Positions 12,001 through 51,000 of a DNA stretch of 64,000 bases are shown here, piece by piece (within the stretch, counting starts at the first letter, position 1; every line of letters starts with the position of its first letter). Made by a program: the position numbers. The stretch spans positions 1,024,001 to 1,088,000 of the forward strand of contig CAVOKF010000004.1 in assembly GCA_963696385.1 (NCBI GenBank), given 5' to 3'. The stretch comes from an uncultured delta proteobacterium. GTDB lineage: Bacteria > Myxococcota_A > Polyangia > Polyangiales > Polyangiaceae.

Positions 12001-15000
12001 ACGCCATCGCCTCGCTGAAGAGAAGGGTGAGCCGGCTCACCTCTTTGATCTGCAGGTTGATCGCATCGAGCCGTGCCCGTCGATCGCGTGTCCGCGCCAT
12101 TGGCTCGCCTCTCGCTGGTGGTCCGTTGACGAATGTATCTTATCCACTAAGATACATGGGGGAAAAGATAACGGACCTGGAAGGCGGTGAGATGGTTCCT
12201 GAATCCGTCGTGATCGTTCCGCTCGTCGCGTTGGCTTTGGGGGCCGTTTGCCTCGGCGGGGGCATCTACGAGACGCTCCTCGTCGACCCGGTCTGGCCAG
12301 GGAACCCCGCGATAATCCAACCGAGCCGCGGCGGCCTGGACCGCAAGCGCTTTTGGGCTCCGATTCACACGCTCTTCGAGATCGCGCTCCTCGTCAGCGC
12401 GTGGATGGCGTGGAGCGGGCCCGCGGCCCGCCCGTGCATCGTCCTTGCGTTGTCCGCGCACTTCGGGGCGAGGGTCTGGTCCTTCGCGTACTTCATTCCG
12501 AGGGCTCTACGGTTCGAGAAGATGGGCGAACTCTCGGAAGAACAAGTGCGCCTCGCCCGAAGATGGACGCGCCTCAGTCCCTGTCGCTCCCTCATCGAGC
12601 TCGTATCAATCGCGGCGCTCGGGGCGGTCGTCGTGCACCTGGGGCGCGGGTAAGCTTGGGGCAAGCGATTCTCGAAATTCCCATCGCCAAGCTCGCCTAC
12701 TCGATTGCAGCCGTCGTTCGACGGGTTTATCGATGTTGAGCCTCGGCGATCTTGCGCGTGACCGAGCCATGACAACAGGAGTCGCGAGACGGCCGCTACG
12801 GTGTGATGCCGTGCGCGAGCTCACGTTCCTCCAATCCAAGGTCCTGGAGTGGCGGGATGTTCCCGAGCCCACCTTGACGTCGGAAACGGACGCGATCGTG
12901 CGCCCTTTCATCGCCGCCCGATGCGACGCTGACCCCTTCTATCTTCGGCATAATTTTGAGCAGCTTCTTCGGGTCGGTGCCATGATGCATGTATTGGACG
13001 AGGCCTTTCGCGGCCCGTCTACCAATCCATTCGCCGCTCCCTTTGCCTACGGTCACGAAGGCGTGGCGGAGGTGATGGCATGCGGCGCAGAAGTGCGACG
13101 CTTTGGCATTGGCGACCTCGTAATCGTTCCGTGGGCGCTTTCTTGCGGCGCATGTTTTCCATGTGCGGCCGGATACACGACGAAGTGCGCGCCGGCGCGC
13201 GGCGACAAACCGCTGGCTGCCTTCGGTTTCGGCAAGGCGTTTGGTCGACACGGTGGAATGGTCAGTGACGCTCTGCGCGTCCCGTGGGCCGATGCGATGC
13301 TCGTGCGCGTTCCGGCTGAGGTCGAACCCTTGGCGCTGGCGAGTGCAAGTGACGATATTCCCGACGCCTATCGAACCGTCGCACCGTTTCTCGAACGAGG
13401 GACGGGGTCTCGGGCGATTTGACCCCATCGGCATGACGTCGAAGGCGATCGGTAGTGAATTTCGCCAACGCCGGGCGCGTCCCCGTGCGATTCGAGCGTT
13501 GGCGCGCAGCGCGGTGCGTCATGGTACATCGGGGGGATGCGATTCGCGCTGACGATGTCGTGTCTCTTCGTGGTCGCGTTGGCAAGCACACCGGCCAGCG
13601 CCAGCGACGTCCAAGTTGCCGTGGCCGCAAACTTCGATGCGCCGATGCAGCGCATCGCAAGCGAGTTCGAGAAAGAGTTGGGGCATCGTGTCCTGATCGT
13701 CACGGCCGCGACCGGCGCACTGTTCGCGCAAATCGAGAACGGCGCGCCATTCGAACTGCTGCTTGCGGCGGACGAAGCCACGCCGAGACGGCTCGAGTCC
13801 GACGGAAGGGCCGTCGCCGGGAGCCGCTTTACGTATGCGCTCGGCCGGTTGGTTCTGTGGAGCTCCCGCCCGGACTACGTAGACGGAAGCGGCGCGGTCC
13901 TTCGCGAAGGTCGCTTCGCGCACCTGGCCGTCGCCAACCCCGCCCTAGCCCCTTACGGCGCAGCGGCGTTCGAGGTTCTCCGAGCCCTGGGGCTGCTCGA
14001 CCCGCTGCGCGCGAAGCTCGTTCAGGGCGAAAGCATCGCCCAGACGGCCCAGTTCGTCGCGAGTGGCAGTGCGGAGCTCGGGTTCGTCGCATTGTCGCAG
14101 GTGGCCTCACAAGTGCAGGCGTCCGTCGGCAGCTACTGGCTCGTGCCTCAGCACCTGTACGCCCCGATTCGTCAGCAAGCCGTTCTTCTGCGCCCGGGCG
14201 CGAGCAATCCGGCTGCCCGGGCGCTCTTCGAGTACCTCCGGAGCGCCGCGGCGAAAACCGTCATTCGCGCGTTCGGCTACGGGCTGGAAGAGCCGGTGCC
14301 GACCGCGGGTGTCGAAGACGGCTCCAGTCCCAGCCCGAGGCTCTAGGATCCGCGTGCCGAGCGACACCGATCTCGCAGCCGTCCTCGTCACGCTGAAGCT
14401 CGCGACGACCACCACGTTCGTCCTGCTCCTCATCGGGACCCCCATCGCGTGGTGGCTTGCCCGGTCGACGTCGCATTGGCGGGGGTCGATCGGCGCCGTC
14501 GTGGCTCTTCCGCTGGTGCTGCCTCCGACGGTCCTCGGCTTCTACCTTCTCGTTTTGCTGGGGCCGAACGGACCGGCGGGTCGGCTCACGCAAGCCATCG
14601 GGATGGGCACGCTGCCATTTACGTTCGGGGGGCTCGTCGTGTCCTCGACCGTGGCATCGCTGCCATTCGTCGTGCAACCCTTGCAGAACGCATTCGAAGC
14701 CCTGGGAGCTACGCCGCTCGAGATCGCCGCGACTCTCGGCGCGGGTCCTTGGGACCGTTTCTTCACGGTGGCCGTTCCCTTGGCGCGGCCGGGGTTCCTC
14801 GTGGCCTCGGTGTTGGGATTCGCACACACCGTCGGCGAGTTCGGCGTGGTGCTGATGATGGGCGGCAACGTTCCGGGCAAGACGCGCGTGCTCTCGGTCG
14901 CGCTCTACGACCACGTCGAGGCGATGGAGTACCCTGACGCTCACCGACTCGCGGGCGTCCTCGTCGCTTTCTCCTTTGCGCTGCTCGTCGCCCTCTACTC

Positions 15001-48000: not shown

Positions 48001-51000
48001 AGCGCCGTGCTCGAAGCCTTCGTTGGCGGCGTGCAAAAGGCCGGAGCGGCTCGAGCCCAAGACAACACCCGCCAGCTCCACCCCCAGCTTGTCGGCGAGC
48101 TTTCGGCCCTCACCGAGCAGTTCGAGAGAGACAGGGTGGATTGCCTGCCGTTCGTACTCGACGAAGACCCAAACGTGCCGATAGACCTTCAGGTGCTCGG
48201 GAAGCTCCTTCTTCTTGGAGGCGCGTCCGCTGGCGGCCGCTTTCGCAGGAGCTTGCGTCATGGGTGACGGGTGCTTGAGCAACGTTCGTTCCAGCCCTGG
48301 CGTCAGGCCGACCCCGGTGAATTCCGCGGAGTGCCGAACCGTCCCCTTTTGCAGCCAAGCCCCGAGCCTCGTGAGGTTTCGGACCACGCGGGGTGCACCG
48401 GAGGGCCCTCGTCCGCTCAAGCGGTGGCCCGATCGCCGGATTGTTGGACACCGCACACGGTCTTGTCGATCATCCGACAACTCGCGTTTTGGGCGTCGCA
48501 TTCCCGGCCAAAGGCCCGGCTTTGCCCTGGTACGCGAGTTGCTGGGTCGAGAGCGCGCCGCTCCATCCGCTTCCCGAAGGGGGCCAGGGGGCGCGCATGC
48601 GTGATGACGCGACTCGTGTTCCAAAGCCCCGCTTTCTCGAAAGGAAGAAAAGACGTGACCCTAGCCGCCCCCACCGTGGAGCCGCTTTCCTGGACCGCGA
48701 TCGAGCCCCACCCGGACAGTTGGTTTCGGGAAGTCAGCGAGGGCCTACGCGCGGGAAGGTTGGCTCCGTATCTGGGTCCGGGAGTCATCGAACTTGCGCG
48801 CGCCTCCGTCCCATCGACGCAAGAGGCGCTCGCGGCGTTTTTGGGAGGCAAGGTCGCGCTGCCGCGCCGCGCGCGGGGTAACCTCGGGGCGGCCGCCCAA
48901 TACATCGAAAGCCACCGGCACAGGAGCGTGGTCGTTCAATTGATGGCGGAGGCCTTCGCCGTGCCGGTGTCGCCTCTTGCCATTCATCGGTACCTCGCCG
49001 AGCTGCCGCTGCCCCTCGTCGTCGACACCTGGTACGACGGCGCGATGCGCGCGGCCTTGGCGGGCCGGGCTAATTGGGGCGAAATTCAGGGCGTTCGCCG
49101 CTCGGGACTCGGCGGGGATCCGTACTACGCGACGTACGACGCAACCGGAGTGGCGTGCCCGATCGAGGTGGCAGACGGGTGGAAAACGGTTCTCTATAAG
49201 CCGCATGGTGCGAGCACGCCGGCGAAAAACTTCTTGGTCTCGGACTCGGACTACGTAGAAGTTTTGACCGAGATCGATATTCAGACCCCCATTCCTGAAG
49301 TGGTCAAGACGCGGCGTTCTCGCGTTGGCTTCGTGTTTCTCGGTTGTCGCCTCAACGACCAAACTTTGCGCTGCTACGCTCGTCAGCTGCTCAAGCGATC
49401 GGGCGAACGCCACTTCATCGTGATCGAGCCGGGTGTCGCAACCAGAAACGAGCGGCGTTTCATCAGCGAGCACGGCCTGATGGCGCTCGTGAGCCCGTTG
49501 GCCGCCGCCCTCGATCAGTTGACGGCCTTTCCGCGTGCGGCTTGACCCCTTGTCAGTTGATGACTGAGGCTTGGCTGGCTTGGACATGGGGGAGGCAACG
49601 CGACCCGGAATGGCCCTTGCTTGGGTAGCTCGCATGGTTCCGACTGCAACCGCCGGTATGCCATGAAACTGAGCGCCGACGTTCGGCTGCCGTTTGGGCG
49701 TGAAACCGTATACGTCGCGTATCGCGACGAGATGGGCAAGGTGCTCGAATTTTTGCCGAGCGTTCGGGCCGTCGACCTGAAAGCGCGACGTGAGGACGCG
49801 TTGGGGGTGCATCTGGTCCGCGAGTGGCACGGAGGAGGGGAGGTTCCCGCCGCCGTTCGCGGGATCGTGACCGAGTCCATGCTTGCGTGGGACGACTACG
49901 CGACTTGGGACGCGACGTCGTACTCCTGTGACTGGCAGATCGAATCGCGCAGCTTCCCGGACGCTCTTCGCTGCCGCGGCCGCACGTCATTCGTCGACGA
50001 GGGCGCAGGACAAACTCTCCTTGCCCTCCGCGGCACTATCGAGGTGCAGGCCCGCAGGCTCCCTGGAGTCCCGCCATTTCTGGCGGTTTCCGTGGCTCGT
50101 TCGGTGGAGGAGTTCTTGGTGGACAAAATTGAATCGAACGTGCGGCACGCGGTCGGCTGGTTCGAGAGGAATCGACCATGAACGCCCCGCCTCGCTCGAC
50201 CGGCTCCGGCGAGAGCCACGTTCTGCCGGTCCGTCTGCGGGAACTCCAATCGAAGTTTGAGGATCATGTCATCCTTGCGGTGCAAGGTTGGAATAAGCAC
50301 ATTGTCGACGAGACCCAACTCGAGGGCATGAGCGCGTACGCGAAGGCCGACGCCCGGGCCAAAGCCAGAGCGGAGGGCCTCGACGGATTCCTGCTCACGC
50401 TGGACTCTGCGAGTTACGATGCCGTGATGCGGGGCGCTGACGACCGCGCGCTCCGGCACGAAATGTACGAGGCCTATGCGACCCGCGCCTCCGATCGCGG
50501 ACCCCGGGCCTACCGGTTCGACAACGGCCCGATCATCGAGAACATCTTGGCCTTCCGTCACCAGGAGGCCACCCGGCTCGGCTTTCCGAACTATGCGGAG
50601 TGGTTGCTGCAAACGGAGGTGGGCGGGACGGCAGACGACGTGGAGCGCCTTCTGCTCGAGCTCAATGCGAAGGTGCGCGGGCGTGCCCAGGCCGAGCTAC
50701 ACGAGGTGTGGGCGTTCGCCAAGGCGGAGCACGGATTGAAGGGATTTCGCCCCTGGGATCTTCGGTATTACACAGAAAGGCTGGAACGAACGAAGCACGG
50801 TGTCGCTGACGTTCAGACAGGTGAATCGTTGCCCGGCACGATCCGCGGGCAGCCGATCTCCGGCGGCTCGTGCGATGTCGCGCTGACGCGGCTTTATGAG
50901 ATCGAAGCGGCGCTCTTCGATCTGCGAGTGCACCGCGACTATGTCCCCGCCGAGAAGGCATCTCGGCTACGCTCGCACGTCTTGGACACGCTGGCCCAGG

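What a model noticed while it worked through the whole genome (the two positions that open the first line are those of the whole stretch)
13537..48387. Complete alphaproteobacterial-type nif/fix/isc/mod island in a Polyangiaceae chromosome
A 35-kb block holds modABC, nifV, two nifH, nifDK, nifENX, nifB, nifZ, nifT, nifS, nifW, nifQ, nifX-associated genes, ferredoxins, a full iscSUA-hscBA-fdx set and fixABCX, whose products are 65-91% identical to those of Alphaproteobacteria. I read it as a laterally acquired, oxygen-tolerant Mo-nitrogenase island that makes this soil myxobacterium (a group known as aerobic predators and cellulose degraders) a free-living diazotroph. New would be nitrogen fixation in Polyangiales and a whole rhizobial-type nif regulon at work in a myxobacterium.
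Evidence so far: Gene table of C4:1037537-1072387: NCBIfam calls for NifH, NifD, NifK, NifN, NifX, NifB, NifT, NifS, NifW, HscA/B, IscU, ModC. Best Swiss-Prot matches: NifH 90.6% Gluconacetobacter diazotrophicus, NifD 80.0% and NifK 71.7% Sinorhizobium fredii, NifE 70% Mesorhizobium, NifB 69%, FixA 74% and FixB 72% Azorhizobium, FixC 65% Bradyrhizobium. The block lies 100 kb from the end of a 1.17-Mb contig that also carries the rRNA operon and is flanked by IS copies shared with other contigs (IS110 at 1018233, IS630 at 1124997, IS21 at 1130199; calls 7, 17); G+C of the genes 0.58-0.69 against 0.66 for the genome. NifZ, NifT, NifQ, DUF269 families occur in 3-4 of 30 genomes of the genus and 12-14 of 592 Pol [...]
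(Added by a program. Inside this text positions count along the whole contig: contig position 1,024,001 is position 1 of the stretch shown here. "Call 12" and the like, gene names such as g00115 and contig names such as C1 are that model's own, and its searches are not shown. The text may have been shortened before it was handed on; [...] marks where a part breaks off. The agent that wrote the report below was given it as the finding of a first reader that could run no searches.)

Follow-up and report, generated by a model that had tools for sequence, protein, structure and literature searches.

The report
Nitrogen-fixation gene island in a myxobacterium
A soil and peat myxobacterium of the Sorangium family carries a complete, apparently working set of nitrogen-fixation genes, most of it taken from Alphaproteobacteria; relatives carry it too, so it is a good lead but not a new kind of system.

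Summary
Window 13.5-58 kb is a Mo-nitrogenase island: modAB, nifV, two nifH, nifDKENX, nifB, nifZTSWQ, fixA and fixBCX, a full isc set and ferredoxins.

- **Regulation:** eight sigma-54 promoter plus NifA-site pairs lie in the island, against four in the other 6.9 Mb.
- **Origin of the nif core:** NifD sits in a strongly supported clade of Alphaproteobacteria plus Polyangiaceae.
- **Origin of the isc genes:** they are not alphaproteobacterial. They duplicate this genus's own housekeeping isc operon. NifU is absent.
- **Chimera excluded:** an independent contig bridges the left junction. A same-genus genome and the complete chromosome of Sorangium sp. So ce513 carry orthologous islands.
- **nifE frameshift:** contigs of three of four runs laid lack the extra base; the fourth has no row there. 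It is probably an assembly error.
- **Transcription:** RNA-library contigs cover the nif genes.

Novelty is limited. nifD occurs in 22 of 383 family genomes, and two papers already mention such genomes. Diazotrophic growth is untested.

The parts
13537..15028 (+). modA (13537-14346) and modB (14354-15028), molybdate ABC transporter
   Evidence: TIGR01256 215 bits (cut-off 62.5) and TIGR02141 228 bits (cut-off 182.6)
15029..15650 (+). modC remnant, with fragments at 15155-15310 and 15489-15650
   Evidence: Two short matches to TIGR02142, profile positions 40-86 and 310-352 of 353. Only about 620 bp remain. Runs X1 and X2 show a 5-letter indel at 15031.
15710..16024 (-). Mop (molbindin) domain protein
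   Evidence: TIGR00638 69 bits (cut-off 55)
16074..17297 (-). iscS, island copy
   Evidence: NF010611 670 bits (cut-off 548). 81% identical to the housekeeping copy on C5. A sigma-54-like site (10 of 12) lies at 17412.
17494..18393 (-). LRV-FeS protein 1
   Evidence: PF05484 and PF01816. A 9-of-12 sigma-54 site at 18526 with a UAS at 18636.
18758..19255 (+). bacterioferritin
   Evidence: TIGR00754 214 bits (cut-off 125.55)
19770..22063 (-). nifV (20633-22063 as an open frame; the start is probably near 21787) followed by fixA (19770-20630)
   Evidence: TIGR02660 495 bits (cut-off 462.9), matching from residue 98. ETF-beta models match below cut-off. G302 has the same nifV-fixA adjacency.
22378..26645 (+). 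nifH1 (22378-23286), nifD (23389-24900), nifK (25104-26645)
   Evidence: TIGR01287 451.5, TIGR01282 856 and TIGR01286 859 bits, all above cut-off. Sigma-54 site at 22266 with a UAS 90 bp upstream. Best solved structure is the chain listed under 10zk/5koh, 975 bits.
26687..30067 (+). nifE (26687-28199, with a +1 frameshift at about 27087-27091 in the window's letters), nifN (28204-29604), nifX (29579-30067)
   Evidence: NifE of G302 and G363 aligns in two abutting frames. One letter is left out at 27087 in X6, X1 and X2.
30236..34875 (+). nifB, LRV-FeS 2 (31830-32645), nifZ (32648-32977), nifT (32974-33195), HesB/IscA-like (33279-33671), nifS (33709-34875)
   Evidence: TIGR01290 710, TIGR02934 107 and TIGR03402 587 bits, all above cut-off. 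PF04319 NifZ. Sigma-54 site at 30167 with a UAS.
34943..40439 (-). Presumed single NifA-driven operon: nif-type iscA (40119-40439), nifW, fdxN-like, NafY-like, iscU, iscA, hscB, hscA, isc ferredoxin (34943-35308)
   Evidence: (HscA 795, IscU 231, HscB 76, NifW 134 bits, all above cut-off). Sigma-54 site at 40508 with two UAS. Gene gaps are at most 86 bp, and terminator-like hits are at chance level. The isc genes descend from the host operon.
40870..44214 (+). nifH2 (40870-41778), second nifX, NifX-associated (DUF269), Rop-like, nifQ (43588-44214)
   Evidence: The nifH2 protein is identical to nifH1, with 5 synonymous differences in 909 nt. Sigma-54 site at 40803 with two UAS.
44385..48387 (-). 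fixB (47167-48387 as an open frame; ATG at 48261), fixC, fixX, intact modC (44385-45485)
   Evidence: TIGR02142 417 bits (cut-off 285). ETF-alpha, FixC and FixX models match. Sigma-54 site at 48293 with two UAS.
48601..55795 (+). NifA-controlled accessory genes: SIR2_2 protein (48601-49545), unknown, M3 peptidase fragment (50178-51182), HesB-like, truncated globin (51694-52218), FeSII-like plus ferritin-like fusion (52423-53304), rubrerythrin-like, dodecin, thioredoxin-like 2Fe-2S ferredoxin (54424-54783), YgfZ-like (54803-55795)
   Evidence: Sigma-54 sites with UAS at 48528, 51312 and 54402.
56127..57923 (+). nifA
   Evidence: TIGR01817 725 bits (cut-off 528.85). GAFTGA motif and C-X11-C-X19-C-X4-C at residues 443-480.
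57968..64000 (.). Probable metal-uptake module: DUF364 (-), DUF2478 (-), ModE-like HTH plus PBP (+), two unknown proteins (+), and the start of a 1411-aa TonB_C/Plug/barrel protein that runs off the window
   Evidence: In G302 the syntenic genes lie beside modAB. The function is inferred.

Best explanation
This is a genuine, chromosomally integrated Mo-nitrogenase island of about 45 kb (window about 13.5-58 kb) in a Polyangiaceae genome.

**Origin.** The catalytic and cofactor-assembly core entered Polyangiaceae by horizontal transfer from an alphaproteobacterial lineage. That core comprises nifHDK, nifENX, nifB, nifV, nifS, nifZTWQ and probably fixABCX and nifA. In this genus NifU is missing. 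A duplicate of the host's own iscSUA-hscBA-fdx operon has been inserted instead, most of it behind a NifA-dependent promoter.

**Proposed working.**
1. Under low oxygen and low fixed nitrogen, the oxygen-sensitive NifA (no NifL) binds TGT-N10-ACA sites. Together with the host's sigma-54 it fires about ten promoters.
2. FixABCX supplies low-potential electrons.
3. NifS/IscS with IscU/IscA/HscBA build the Fe-S clusters.
4. NifB, NifEN, NifX, NafY, NifQ, NifV and ModABC make FeMo-co.
5. An FeSII-like protein, a globin, rubrerythrin-like proteins, bacterioferritin and a cbb3 oxidase hold oxygen down.

**Shown:** gene content, promoter and site enrichment, the phylogenies, integration in the chromosome, and presence of the genes in RNA libraries.

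**Inferred:** the regulatory logic, replacement of NifU by the duplicated ISC set, and actual N2 fixation.
For: **Gene set.**

**Regulon.** NifA scores 725 bits and carries the four-cysteine motif. rpoN is present. Of 12 genome-wide pairs of a sigma-54 site (at least 10 of 12 matches) with a TGT-N10-ACA 40-250 bp upstream, 8 lie in the 45-kb island. TGT-N10-ACA density is 0.33 per kb in the island against 0.033 genome-wide. All eight lie just upstream of operon starts.

**Transfer from Alphaproteobacteria.**
- The closest named non-myxobacterial NifD hits are Roseomonas 85%, Gluconacetobacter 84%, a Hyphomicrobiaceae MAG 84% and Mesorhizobium 80%.
- In the 97-row tree the window lies in a clade of 19 Alphaproteobacteria plus 11 Polyangiaceae rows (SH-aLRT 100).
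- In the careful 35-row tree that clade has support 100/99.
- The family holds two further NifD lineages, at 71-73% and about 60% identity.
- nifD is above cut-off in 22 of 383 family genomes, 8 of 89 genera and 4 of 30 other genus genomes.

**Not a chimera.**
- RpoB matches Myxococcales-labelled and Deltaproteobacteria-labelled records at 70-73%, against about 60% for Alphaproteobacteria.
- The left flank matches scattered places in 29 of 30 same-genus genomes.
- A 4328-nt contig of run X2 spans 12627-16959, across the left junction.
- G302 carries the orthologous island inside a 3.98-Mb contig, and So ce513 carries it in a closed chromosome.

**Host-derived isc genes.**
- They are 58-90% identical to the operon on C5.
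- None of the 80 best named HscA hits is labelled Alphaproteobacteria; most are labelled Myxococcota lineages, the rest unclassified delta-/Proteobacteria MAGs.
- The nif-linked copies form a 100-supported clade inside the genus's own housekeeping clade.
- Two HscA copies occur in exactly 4 of 31 genus genomes, all nif-positive.
- NifU_proper is above cut-off in 0 of G000, G287, G297, G302 and G293, but is present in So ce513.

**Signs of function.**
- The two nifH proteins are identical, with 5 synonymous differences.
- The nifE frame is intact in X6, X1 and X2.
- Contigs of two RNA libraries at 95% identity or more lie on iscS, nifV, nifH, nifD, nifK, nifE and nifB; X6 also covers fixA, nifN and nifX. 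X6 covers 25 of 30 bins and X19 13 of 30.
Against: - No growth, acetylene-reduction or 15N2 data exist for any Polyangiaceae, as far as the searches show.
- The window's own letters carry a frameshift in nifE and a decayed modC. No NifU is present.
- The RNA evidence consists of assembled contigs. They cannot show strand, ends or level, and DNA may be present in an RNA library (tool caveat).
- Within the alpha/Polyangiaceae NifD clade the branching is unresolved. Neither the donor family nor the number of acquisitions is known. A single Polyangiaceae clade is not rejected (p-AU 0.317), but it is not shown either.
- Only NifD and HscA were placed on trees. The origin of fix, mod and nifA rests on best hits. 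For NifA these are a Bryobacteraceae MAG at 63% and Bradyrhizobium at 59%, from a pattern-limited scan.
- Composition deviates only mildly: G+C 0.642 against 0.658 (sd 0.011), and tetranucleotide distance in the top 9% of windows.
- No cytochrome bd was found.
Confidence: 0.75

Rival explanations
1. The island is present but decaying and does not support N2 fixation in this organism. On this reading it is a relic of a transfer, with nifE broken, modC decayed and NifU lost.
For: - A frameshift in nifE in the window.
- A modC remnant.
- An M3 peptidase fragment inside the island.
- No NifU_proper.
- The closest relative by housekeeping HscA, G294 (96% identical), has no nifD.
Against: - The extra letter in nifE is absent from the contigs of X6, X1 and X2 that cover it.
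- An intact modC lies at 44385-45485.
- The other nif, fix and isc genes called are open and score at or near full length against their models.
- The two nifH copies differ only by 5 synonymous changes.
- RNA-library contigs lie on the nif genes.
- Sigma-54 and UAS sites are conserved at eight operon starts.
Confidence: 0.15
2. This is an assembly or binning chimera: the nif block belongs to an alphaproteobacterium and was joined to a myxobacterial contig by mistake.
For: The nif proteins look alphaproteobacterial. The genome is a metagenome bin with 2.78% estimated contamination.
Against: - An independent contig of another study bridges flank and island at 12627-16959.
- DNA runs X1 and X2 cover all 30 bins.
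- Isc genes of myxobacterial descent sit inside the island, between nif genes.
- Orthologous islands lie deep inside a 3.98-Mb contig of G302 and in the closed So ce513 chromosome.
- The flank DNA matches the genus.
Confidence: 0.02
3. The nif genes are ancestral to Polyangiaceae or Myxococcota and were lost many times. On this reading Alphaproteobacteria received them from myxobacteria, or both inherited them vertically.
For: - The island is nearly ameliorated in composition.
- nif-positive genomes are spread over 8 genera.
- A single Polyangiaceae NifD clade is not rejected (p-AU 0.317).
Against: - Only 22 of 383 family genomes carry nifD.
- The family holds three distant NifD lineages.
- The window's lineage is nested among Alphaproteobacteria. 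Its sister groups in the sampled tree are all Pseudomonadota, and a Rhodospirillaceae row lies at the base of the clade.
- Sampling was limited to the 80 best hits, so this argument is suggestive, not decisive.
Confidence: 0.06

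Closest known systems
nif cluster of Sorangium sp. So ce513 (NZ_CP150344.1, complete chromosome; handle G363)
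   Same: Same family by the genome collection's grouping. The NifD lineage is the same (88% identical). NifH is 90%, NifK 83%, NifE 84%, NifB 77%, FixB and FixC 78-80% and NifA 68% identical. nifZ, T, W, Q, V and S are also present.
   Different: - So ce513 keeps a proper NifU (438 bits) in iscA-nifU-nifS-nifV-nifW order.
- It has no hscBA-fdx within 50 kb of nifD.
- It has one nifH in that span, directly before nifD.
- Its fixA lies after fixX.
- Its genome is 12.4 Mb, against 6.9 Mb here.
Major nif/fix/mod cluster of Gluconacetobacter diazotrophicus and relatives (Acetobacteraceae)
   Same: The best solved-structure match of NifD is the chain listed under 10zk/5koh (975 bits); that this entry is the G. 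diazotrophicus MoFe protein is my recollection. G. azotocaptans NifD is 84% identical. That nif, fix and mod genes sit together with nifA in one cluster in that organism is recalled from the literature and comes from no call.
   Different: Here the host is a myxobacterium, NifU is missing, a second host-derived isc operon is embedded, and fixA is detached from fixBCX.
Rhizobial NifA/sigma-54 regulon (Bradyrhizobium, Sinorhizobium, Mesorhizobium)
   Same: - NifA without NifL.
- A C-X11-C-X19-C-X4-C motif between the AAA+ and HTH domains. Its reading as the oxygen- and metal-responsive motif of rhizobial NifA is recalled.
- TGT-N10-ACA sites 56-221 bp upstream of -24/-12 promoters.
- More than one nifH copy.
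- Bradyrhizobium embrapense NifA is 59% identical.
   Different: No nod or symbiosis genes were seen in the window. What controls nifA itself is unknown: no sigma-54 site or UAS lies upstream of it. FixLJ/FixK and NtrBC were not searched for.
Anaeromyxobacter nif cluster (the known diazotrophs of phylum Myxococcota)
   Same: Same phylum. It is a Mo-nitrogenase with nifA (gene string nifBHDKENXA quoted in PMC11773926, passage). Its soil importance is described in PMC11127431 (passages).
   Different: It belongs to a different class. By the quoted gene string its cluster is much smaller, with no fixABCX, isc or mod genes. No sequence comparison was made here.
FeSII (Shethna protein II) of Azotobacter vinelandii
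   Same: Residues 3-109 of the protein at 52423-53304 match PDB 5ffi (Protein FeSII) with E 7.7e-30.
   Different: Here the domain is fused to a ferritin/rubrerythrin-like domain (2oh3). The fused form has more than 1000 homologues, including ones in Derxia, Methyloversatilis, Polaromonas and Steroidobacteraceae. Its protective role is untested.

Membership tests
Mo-nitrogenase (nif) gene cluster, minimal set nifHDKENB | All six genes nifH, nifD, nifK, nifE, nifN and nifB present and intact | tested here: met
   NifH, D, K, N and B are above the NCBIfam equivalog cut-offs. In the window's letters NifE is split by one extra base (491 bits for the C-terminal 384 aa against a cut-off of 505). The frame is continuous in the contigs of X6, X1 and X2.
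Mo-nitrogenase (nif) gene cluster, minimal set nifHDKENB | FeMo-co ligands in NifD (a Cys and a His) | tested here: met
   The alignment to the best solved chain (10zk/5koh) shows the conserved stretches [10 protein letters not shown] and [14 protein letters not shown]. That these stretches hold the two ligands is recalled.
Mo-nitrogenase (nif) gene cluster, minimal set nifHDKENB | Nitrogenase activity (acetylene reduction or 15N2 uptake) | not testable with these tools
   No culture data exist. Only RNA-library contigs on the genes are available.
NifA family of sigma-54 activators (TIGR01817) | GAF domain, AAA+ domain with GAFTGA and a C-terminal HTH, scoring above the equivalog cut-off | tested here: met
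   725 bits against a cut-off of 528.85, aligned over profile positions 3-534. GAFTGA is present in the sequence.
NifA family of sigma-54 activators (TIGR01817) | Cognate sites: TGT-N10-ACA upstream of -24/-12 promoters, with sigma-54 in the genome | tested here: met
   8 pairs in the island against 4 in the rest of the genome. rpoN scores 424 bits.
Oxygen-responsive (NifL-independent) NifA subclass | Cys-X11-Cys-X19-Cys-X4-Cys in the interdomain region | tested here: met
   Residues 443, 455, 475 and 480. No NifL-like gene lies beside nifA. The meaning of the motif is recalled.
FixABCX electron-bifurcating ETF complex | Four subunits: ETF-beta, ETF-alpha, FixC oxidoreductase and FixX ferredoxin | tested here: inconclusive
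   All four are present and match the ETF, FixC and FixX models, but below the equivalog cut-offs of the E. coli-type models. fixA is detached from fixBCX. Identities to So ce513 and G302 are 68-80%.
ISC Fe-S assembly system | IscS, IscU, IscA, HscB, HscA and Fdx | tested here: met
   IscS, IscU, HscB and HscA are above cut-off. IscA passes the subfamily model TIGR00049. Fdx scores 74.5 bits, below the 132.1 cut-off. It is a paralogue set of the C5 operon.
NifU/NifS nif-specific Fe-S system | NifU_proper (TIGR02000) beside NifS | tested here: not met
   NifS is present (587 bits). No NifU_proper above cut-off occurs in this genome; the best hit scores 138 bits and is IscU. The genome is 96.4% complete.
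ModABC molybdate transporter | Binding protein, permease and ATPase | tested here: met
   All three are above cut-off, but the ATPase is encoded 29 kb away. The copy beside modB is a remnant.

The most novel reading that the evidence does not exclude
Cellulose-degrading Polyangiaceae of peat, wetland and forest soils are active microaerobic diazotrophs. On this reading this genus rebuilt nitrogenase maturation without NifU, by duplicating its own housekeeping isc operon and placing it behind a NifA-dependent promoter inside an island of alphaproteobacterial origin. That would be a worked natural example of how a foreign nif cluster is fitted to a distant host.
Probability: 0.35. Interest if true: 0.65.

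Novelty: new member of a known kind. Interest (0 to 1): 0.5.

Why it matters
Myxobacteria of the Sorangium family are studied as cellulose degraders and producers of natural products. Nitrogen fixation is not part of their textbook physiology. If the island works, these organisms couple breakdown of nitrogen-poor plant polymers to their own nitrogen supply, which matters for peat and deadwood nitrogen budgets.

The question is directly testable, because a cultured strain with a closed genome (So ce513) carries the orthologous cluster. The mosaic build is also a natural case study for engineering nif into new hosts: it combines a foreign nif/fix core with a foreign-type NifA regulon, a duplicated host ISC operon and loss of NifU.

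Against this, nif islands acquired by transfer are common. The genes are already annotated in public genomes, and two recent papers mention such genomes in passing.

Tried and rejected
- **Empty site.** I looked for an empty insertion site in nif-negative relatives with the 13.5-kb left flank. The flank is a mosaic of short pieces, toxin-antitoxin genes, gene fragments and repeats scattered over many contigs of the relatives. No clean empty site or island border could be defined. No tRNA gene lies in the window, and no long direct or inverted repeats frame the island.
- **Uncovered parts of the RNA run.** In run X6, stretches 12668-15335 and 18671-19337 have no contigs while the DNA runs cover them. 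Contig depths are not used to rank genes either.
- **AU test on the full NifD set.** It did not finish in two 288-s runs. I replaced it with a 35-row subset chosen from the first tree. These were 9 of the 11 Polyangiaceae rows (the other two are identical duplicates), 14 Alphaproteobacteria of the same clade, 10 more distant Pseudomonadota and 2 outgroup rows.
- **Rows dropped before the trees.** For NifD: L133, L169 and L104 (stop or short match) and L093 (the window itself). For HscA: 12 rows with stops or fewer than 560 aligned residues, among them the housekeeping copy of G287.
- **Mislabelled ferredoxin.** I first took the 2Fe-2S ferredoxin at 54424-54783 for the FeSII homologue. PDB matches show it is a thioredoxin-like ferredoxin (1f37). 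The FeSII-like domain is in 52423-53304.
- **Earlier findings of this scan.** Nothing was held.
- **Cytochrome bd and SufB.** No match. In a genome that is 96% complete this is not proof of absence.

Full report
**What is there.** The window is G000:C4:1024001-1088000. The genome is 6.94 Mb in 8 contigs, with G+C about 0.66. I called genes with a codon-usage model trained on the genome's long open frames and scanned them against NCBIfam and Pfam.
- modA and modB
- iscS
- bacterioferritin
- fixA and nifV
- nifH, nifD, nifK, nifE, nifN and nifX
- nifB, an LRV-FeS protein, nifZ, nifT, a HesB-like protein and nifS
- a minus-strand block of nif-type iscA, nifW, fdxN-like, NafY-like, iscU, iscA, hscB, hscA and fdx
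- a second nifH with a second nifX, DUF269, a Rop-like protein and nifQ
- fixB, fixC, fixX and modC on the minus strand

**The island is longer than reported.** Beyond 48387 lie further genes:
- a SIR2_2 protein, a HesB-like protein, a truncated globin, a rubrerythrin-like protein and dodecin;
- a protein whose N-terminal 109 residues match Azotobacter FeSII (PDB 5ffi, E 7.7e-30), fused to a ferritin-like domain;
- a thioredoxin-like 2Fe-2S ferredoxin and a YgfZ-like protein;
- nifA at 56127-57923 (TIGR01817, 725 bits against a cut-off of 529).

It is there, 8 kb outside the interval.

**Regulation.** NifA has the GAFTGA motif and a C-X11-C-X19-C-X4-C motif at residues 443-480. I recall this motif as the mark of the oxygen-responsive, NifL-independent NifA of rhizobia. 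The genome encodes sigma-54.

I scanned the whole genome for -24/-12 sites with at least 10 of 12 consensus positions (GG and GC fixed) and a TGT-N10-ACA 40-250 bp upstream. It has 12 such pairs. Eight lie in the 45 kb of the island and four in the other 6.9 Mb. The bare TGT-N10-ACA motif is ten times denser in the island. The eight pairs sit just upstream of nifH1, nifB, the iscA-nifW operon, nifH2, fixB, the SIR2 gene, the HesB-globin pair and the thioredoxin-like ferredoxin. Weaker sites (9 of 12) with a UAS precede nifV and the first LRV gene. This is a NifA regulon of about ten promoters.

**Defects.**
- The modC behind modB is a 620-bp remnant. An intact modC lies behind fixX.
- In the window nifE is read in two frames. 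NifE of G302 and of So ce513 aligns to 26729-27091/27112 in one frame and to 27087-28130 in the next, at a run AAA.
- I laid the contigs of four public runs on 12001-32000. One letter is left out at 27087 in three of them: the RNA run X6 (depth 76.7 of 76.7), X1 (10.8 of 10.8, two contigs) and X2 (35 of 35). X19 has no row there. The frameshift is therefore most probably an error of the long-read assembly, or a rare variant.
- The two nifH genes encode identical proteins and differ by five synonymous changes in 909 nt. The similarity stops at the ends of the coding sequence.

**Is the contig a chimera?** No.
- RpoB matches Myxococcales-labelled and Deltaproteobacteria-labelled records at 70-73% and Alphaproteobacteria at about 60%.
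- The left flank is made of pieces that recur at 66-96% nucleotide identity in 29 of 30 genomes of the same genus.
- A 4328-nt contig of run X2 spans 12627-16959, from the flank across modAB and the modC remnant into iscS. X2 comes from a different study than the best holder.
- Orthologous islands exist in other Polyangiaceae. One lies inside a 3.98-Mb contig of G302. Another lies in the closed 12.38-Mb chromosome of Sorangium sp. So ce513, where NifD is 88% identical.
- The genes right of nifA are syntenic with G302, where they lie beside modAB. They are DUF364, DUF2478, a ModE-like regulator, two unknown proteins and a 1411-aa TonB-dependent-receptor-like protein.

**Origin of the nif core.** nifD above the curated cut-off occurs in 22 of 383 genomes of the family (this one included). 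That is 8 of 89 genera and 4 of 30 other genomes of the genus. G282 and G283, which are unpublished, are counted among the negatives; the conclusion does not depend on them.

Identities to the window fall into three groups:

| Group | Identity to the window's NifD | Genomes |
|---|---|---|
| Same lineage | 82-96% | G297, G287, G302, G293, So ce513, G352, G252, G224 |
| Second lineage | 71-73% | G226, G335, G344 |
| Third lineage | about 60% | eight genomes of three other genera |

The closest named non-myxobacterial NifD sequences are Roseomonas acroporae (85%), Gluconacetobacter azotocaptans (84%), a Hyphomicrobiaceae MAG (84%) and Mesorhizobium, Rhizobium, Sinorhizobium and Microvirga (80-81%). 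The best solved structure is the chain listed under 10zk/5koh, which I recall as the G. diazotrophicus MoFe protein.

- In a 97-row tree the window lies in a clade of 19 Alphaproteobacteria and 11 Polyangiaceae rows with SH-aLRT 100.
- In a careful 35-row tree the clade has support 100/99. The four closest genus genomes form a 100/99 clade.
- Branching inside the clade is unresolved. One Polyangiaceae clade is neither recovered nor rejected (p-AU 0.317).
- The sampled sister groups are all Pseudomonadota, so transfer from an alphaproteobacterium into Polyangiaceae is the economical reading. Sampling was limited to the 80 best hits.
- The island's composition is only mildly unusual: G+C 0.642 against 0.658 (sd 0.011), and tetranucleotide distance in the top 9% of 443 windows.

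**The isc module has another history.**
[quoted passage not shown] The island copies are 81, 90, 74, 58, 76 and 73% identical to it.
- None of the 80 best named hits of the island HscA is labelled Alphaproteobacteria; most are labelled Myxococcota lineages (Polyangiaceae, Polyangiales, Labilithrix, Nannocystis), the rest unclassified delta-/Proteobacteria MAGs.
- Two HscA genes above cut-off occur in exactly 4 of 31 genomes of the genus: G000, G287, G297 and G302. All four are nif-positive and form the tight NifD clade.
- In the HscA tree the nif-linked copies of these four genomes form a clade with support 100. It is nested inside the genus's own housekeeping clade (support 96), next to the housekeeping copies of G305 and G285.
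- No NifU_proper above cut-off exists in G000, G287, G297, G302 or G293. So ce513 has one (438 bits) in the order iscA-nifU-nifS-nifV-nifW, and has no hscBA-fdx near nif.
- In the window iscU-iscA-hscB-hscA-fdx follow iscA-nifW-fdxN-nafY on the same strand. The gaps are at most 86 bp, and the block lies behind a sigma-54 promoter with two UAS. Terminator-like hits in this stretch are at chance level, 8 against 5.9 (sd 2.5).

I infer that in this genus a duplicate of the host isc operon took over the role of NifU and came under NifA control. The inference is untested.

**Expression and habitat.** The 10-kb stretch 20001-30000 is held by 20 public runs from 14 studies. Nine runs hold half or more of its sampled words. 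They are labelled soil, peat or plain metagenome.
- Two RNA libraries were laid. X6 has 70 contigs, 45 of them at 99% identity or more, on 25 of 30 bins. They include iscS, fixA, nifV, nifH, nifD, nifK, nifE, nifN, nifX and nifB.
- X19 has 23 contigs on 13 of 30 bins.
- These are assembled contigs. They show that the sequences are present in RNA libraries, not strand, ends or level.

**Oxygen.** Several features fit microaerobic or aerobic fixation:
- the FeSII-like domain;
- the globin, rubrerythrin-like proteins, bacterioferritin, NifW and fixABCX;
- the cysteine motif of NifA;
- a cbb3 oxidase elsewhere in the genome (ccoN 681 bits).

No cytochrome bd was found.

**Literature.** Eight full-text searches found no paper that describes nitrogen fixation in Sorangium or Polyangiaceae, and none that names strain So ce513. 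Passages seen in individual papers:

| Source | What the passage says |
|---|---|
| bioRxiv 10.1101/2025.11.14.688567 | Group I nitrogenases are encoded by "some Myxococcota" MAGs from bark |
| PMC13479853 | Eight genomes of potential N-fixers belong to Polyangiales (Table S10 not read) |
| PMC12685144 | Compares genome sizes of Myxococcota fixers and non-fixers |
| PMC11127431, PMC11773926 | Deal with Anaeromyxobacter |
| PMC11613949 | Found Polyangiaceae MAGs in deadwood but assigned nifHDK only to a Steroidobacteraceae MAG, which also carried an isc set in its nif region |

**Verdict.** The lateral-transfer reading holds for the nif core. It fails for the isc module, which is home-made. The claim of novelty is weakened by the So ce513 chromosome, by 21 other family genomes and by two passing mentions in print. 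What remains open, and testable in a cultured strain, is whether these myxobacteria fix nitrogen.

Noticed in passing
window 52423-53304: An FeSII/Shethna-like 2Fe-2S domain (PDB 5ffi, E 7.7e-30) is fused to a ferritin/rubrerythrin-like domain (2oh3). The same architecture occurs in more than 1000 proteins, among them ones named from Derxia, Methyloversatilis, Polaromonas and Steroidobacteraceae at 74-77% identity. It is a widespread and apparently unstudied variant of the nitrogenase-protecting protein.
   Followed up: partly
window 48601-49545: A SIR2_2-domain protein has its own sigma-54 promoter and two NifA sites. It is conserved next to nif genes in So ce513 (65%) and G302 (60%), and weakly (28-29%) in the second nif lineage of the family. 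Its role in nitrogen fixation is unknown.
   Followed up: partly
window 19770-22063 and 44385-48387: fixA is detached from fixBCX and sits behind nifV. G302 shares this arrangement. In So ce513 fixA lies after fixX. An intact modC closes the fixBCX operon, while the modC behind modAB has decayed.
   Followed up: partly
family-wide (loci L086-L105): Polyangiaceae hold at least three distant NifD lineages, at 82-96%, 71-73% and about 60% identity to the window. This points to several independent acquisitions in one family.
   Followed up: partly
G302:C3, about 3092000-3112600: The same-genus genome G302 has a single nifH within the 100 kb fetched. It lies 20 kb from nifDK and directly behind its nif-linked iscSUA-hscBA-fdx operon.
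   Followed up: no
window 1387-1696, also 7443-8205: A repeat of about 310 bp is present at 96-97% identity on C1, C2, C4 and C8 of the same genome and in G294. A 760-bp piece is shared at 96% with C2 and G294. The left flank also holds ParE, Phd/PIN toxin-antitoxin genes and several gene fragments: Pirin_C, NmrA, an RHS core and ADH_N.
   Followed up: no
window 57968-64000 and L317:2-4141: DUF364, DUF2478, a ModE-like regulator, two proteins with no family match (550 and 469 aa) and a 1411-aa protein with TonB_C, Plug and barrel domains are syntenic with G302, where they lie beside modAB. This may be a TonB-dependent molybdenum-uptake module.
   Followed up: partly
window 50178-51182: A fragment of an M3 oligopeptidase (profile positions 157-353 of 680) sits inside the island between NifA-controlled genes. 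It may be a remnant carried along or disrupted by rearrangement.
   Followed up: no
L317:6983-8500 and 13440-15518 (contig C4 about 1094983-1103518): A KaiC-like ATPase and a KaiB-domain histidine kinase lie about 7-15 kb right of the window.
   Followed up: no
genus-wide: By housekeeping HscA the nearest relative of this genome is G294 (96% identical, 100% complete), which has no nifD. The nif-positive genomes are scattered over the genus in that tree, so either the island moves within the genus or it was lost repeatedly.
   Followed up: partly
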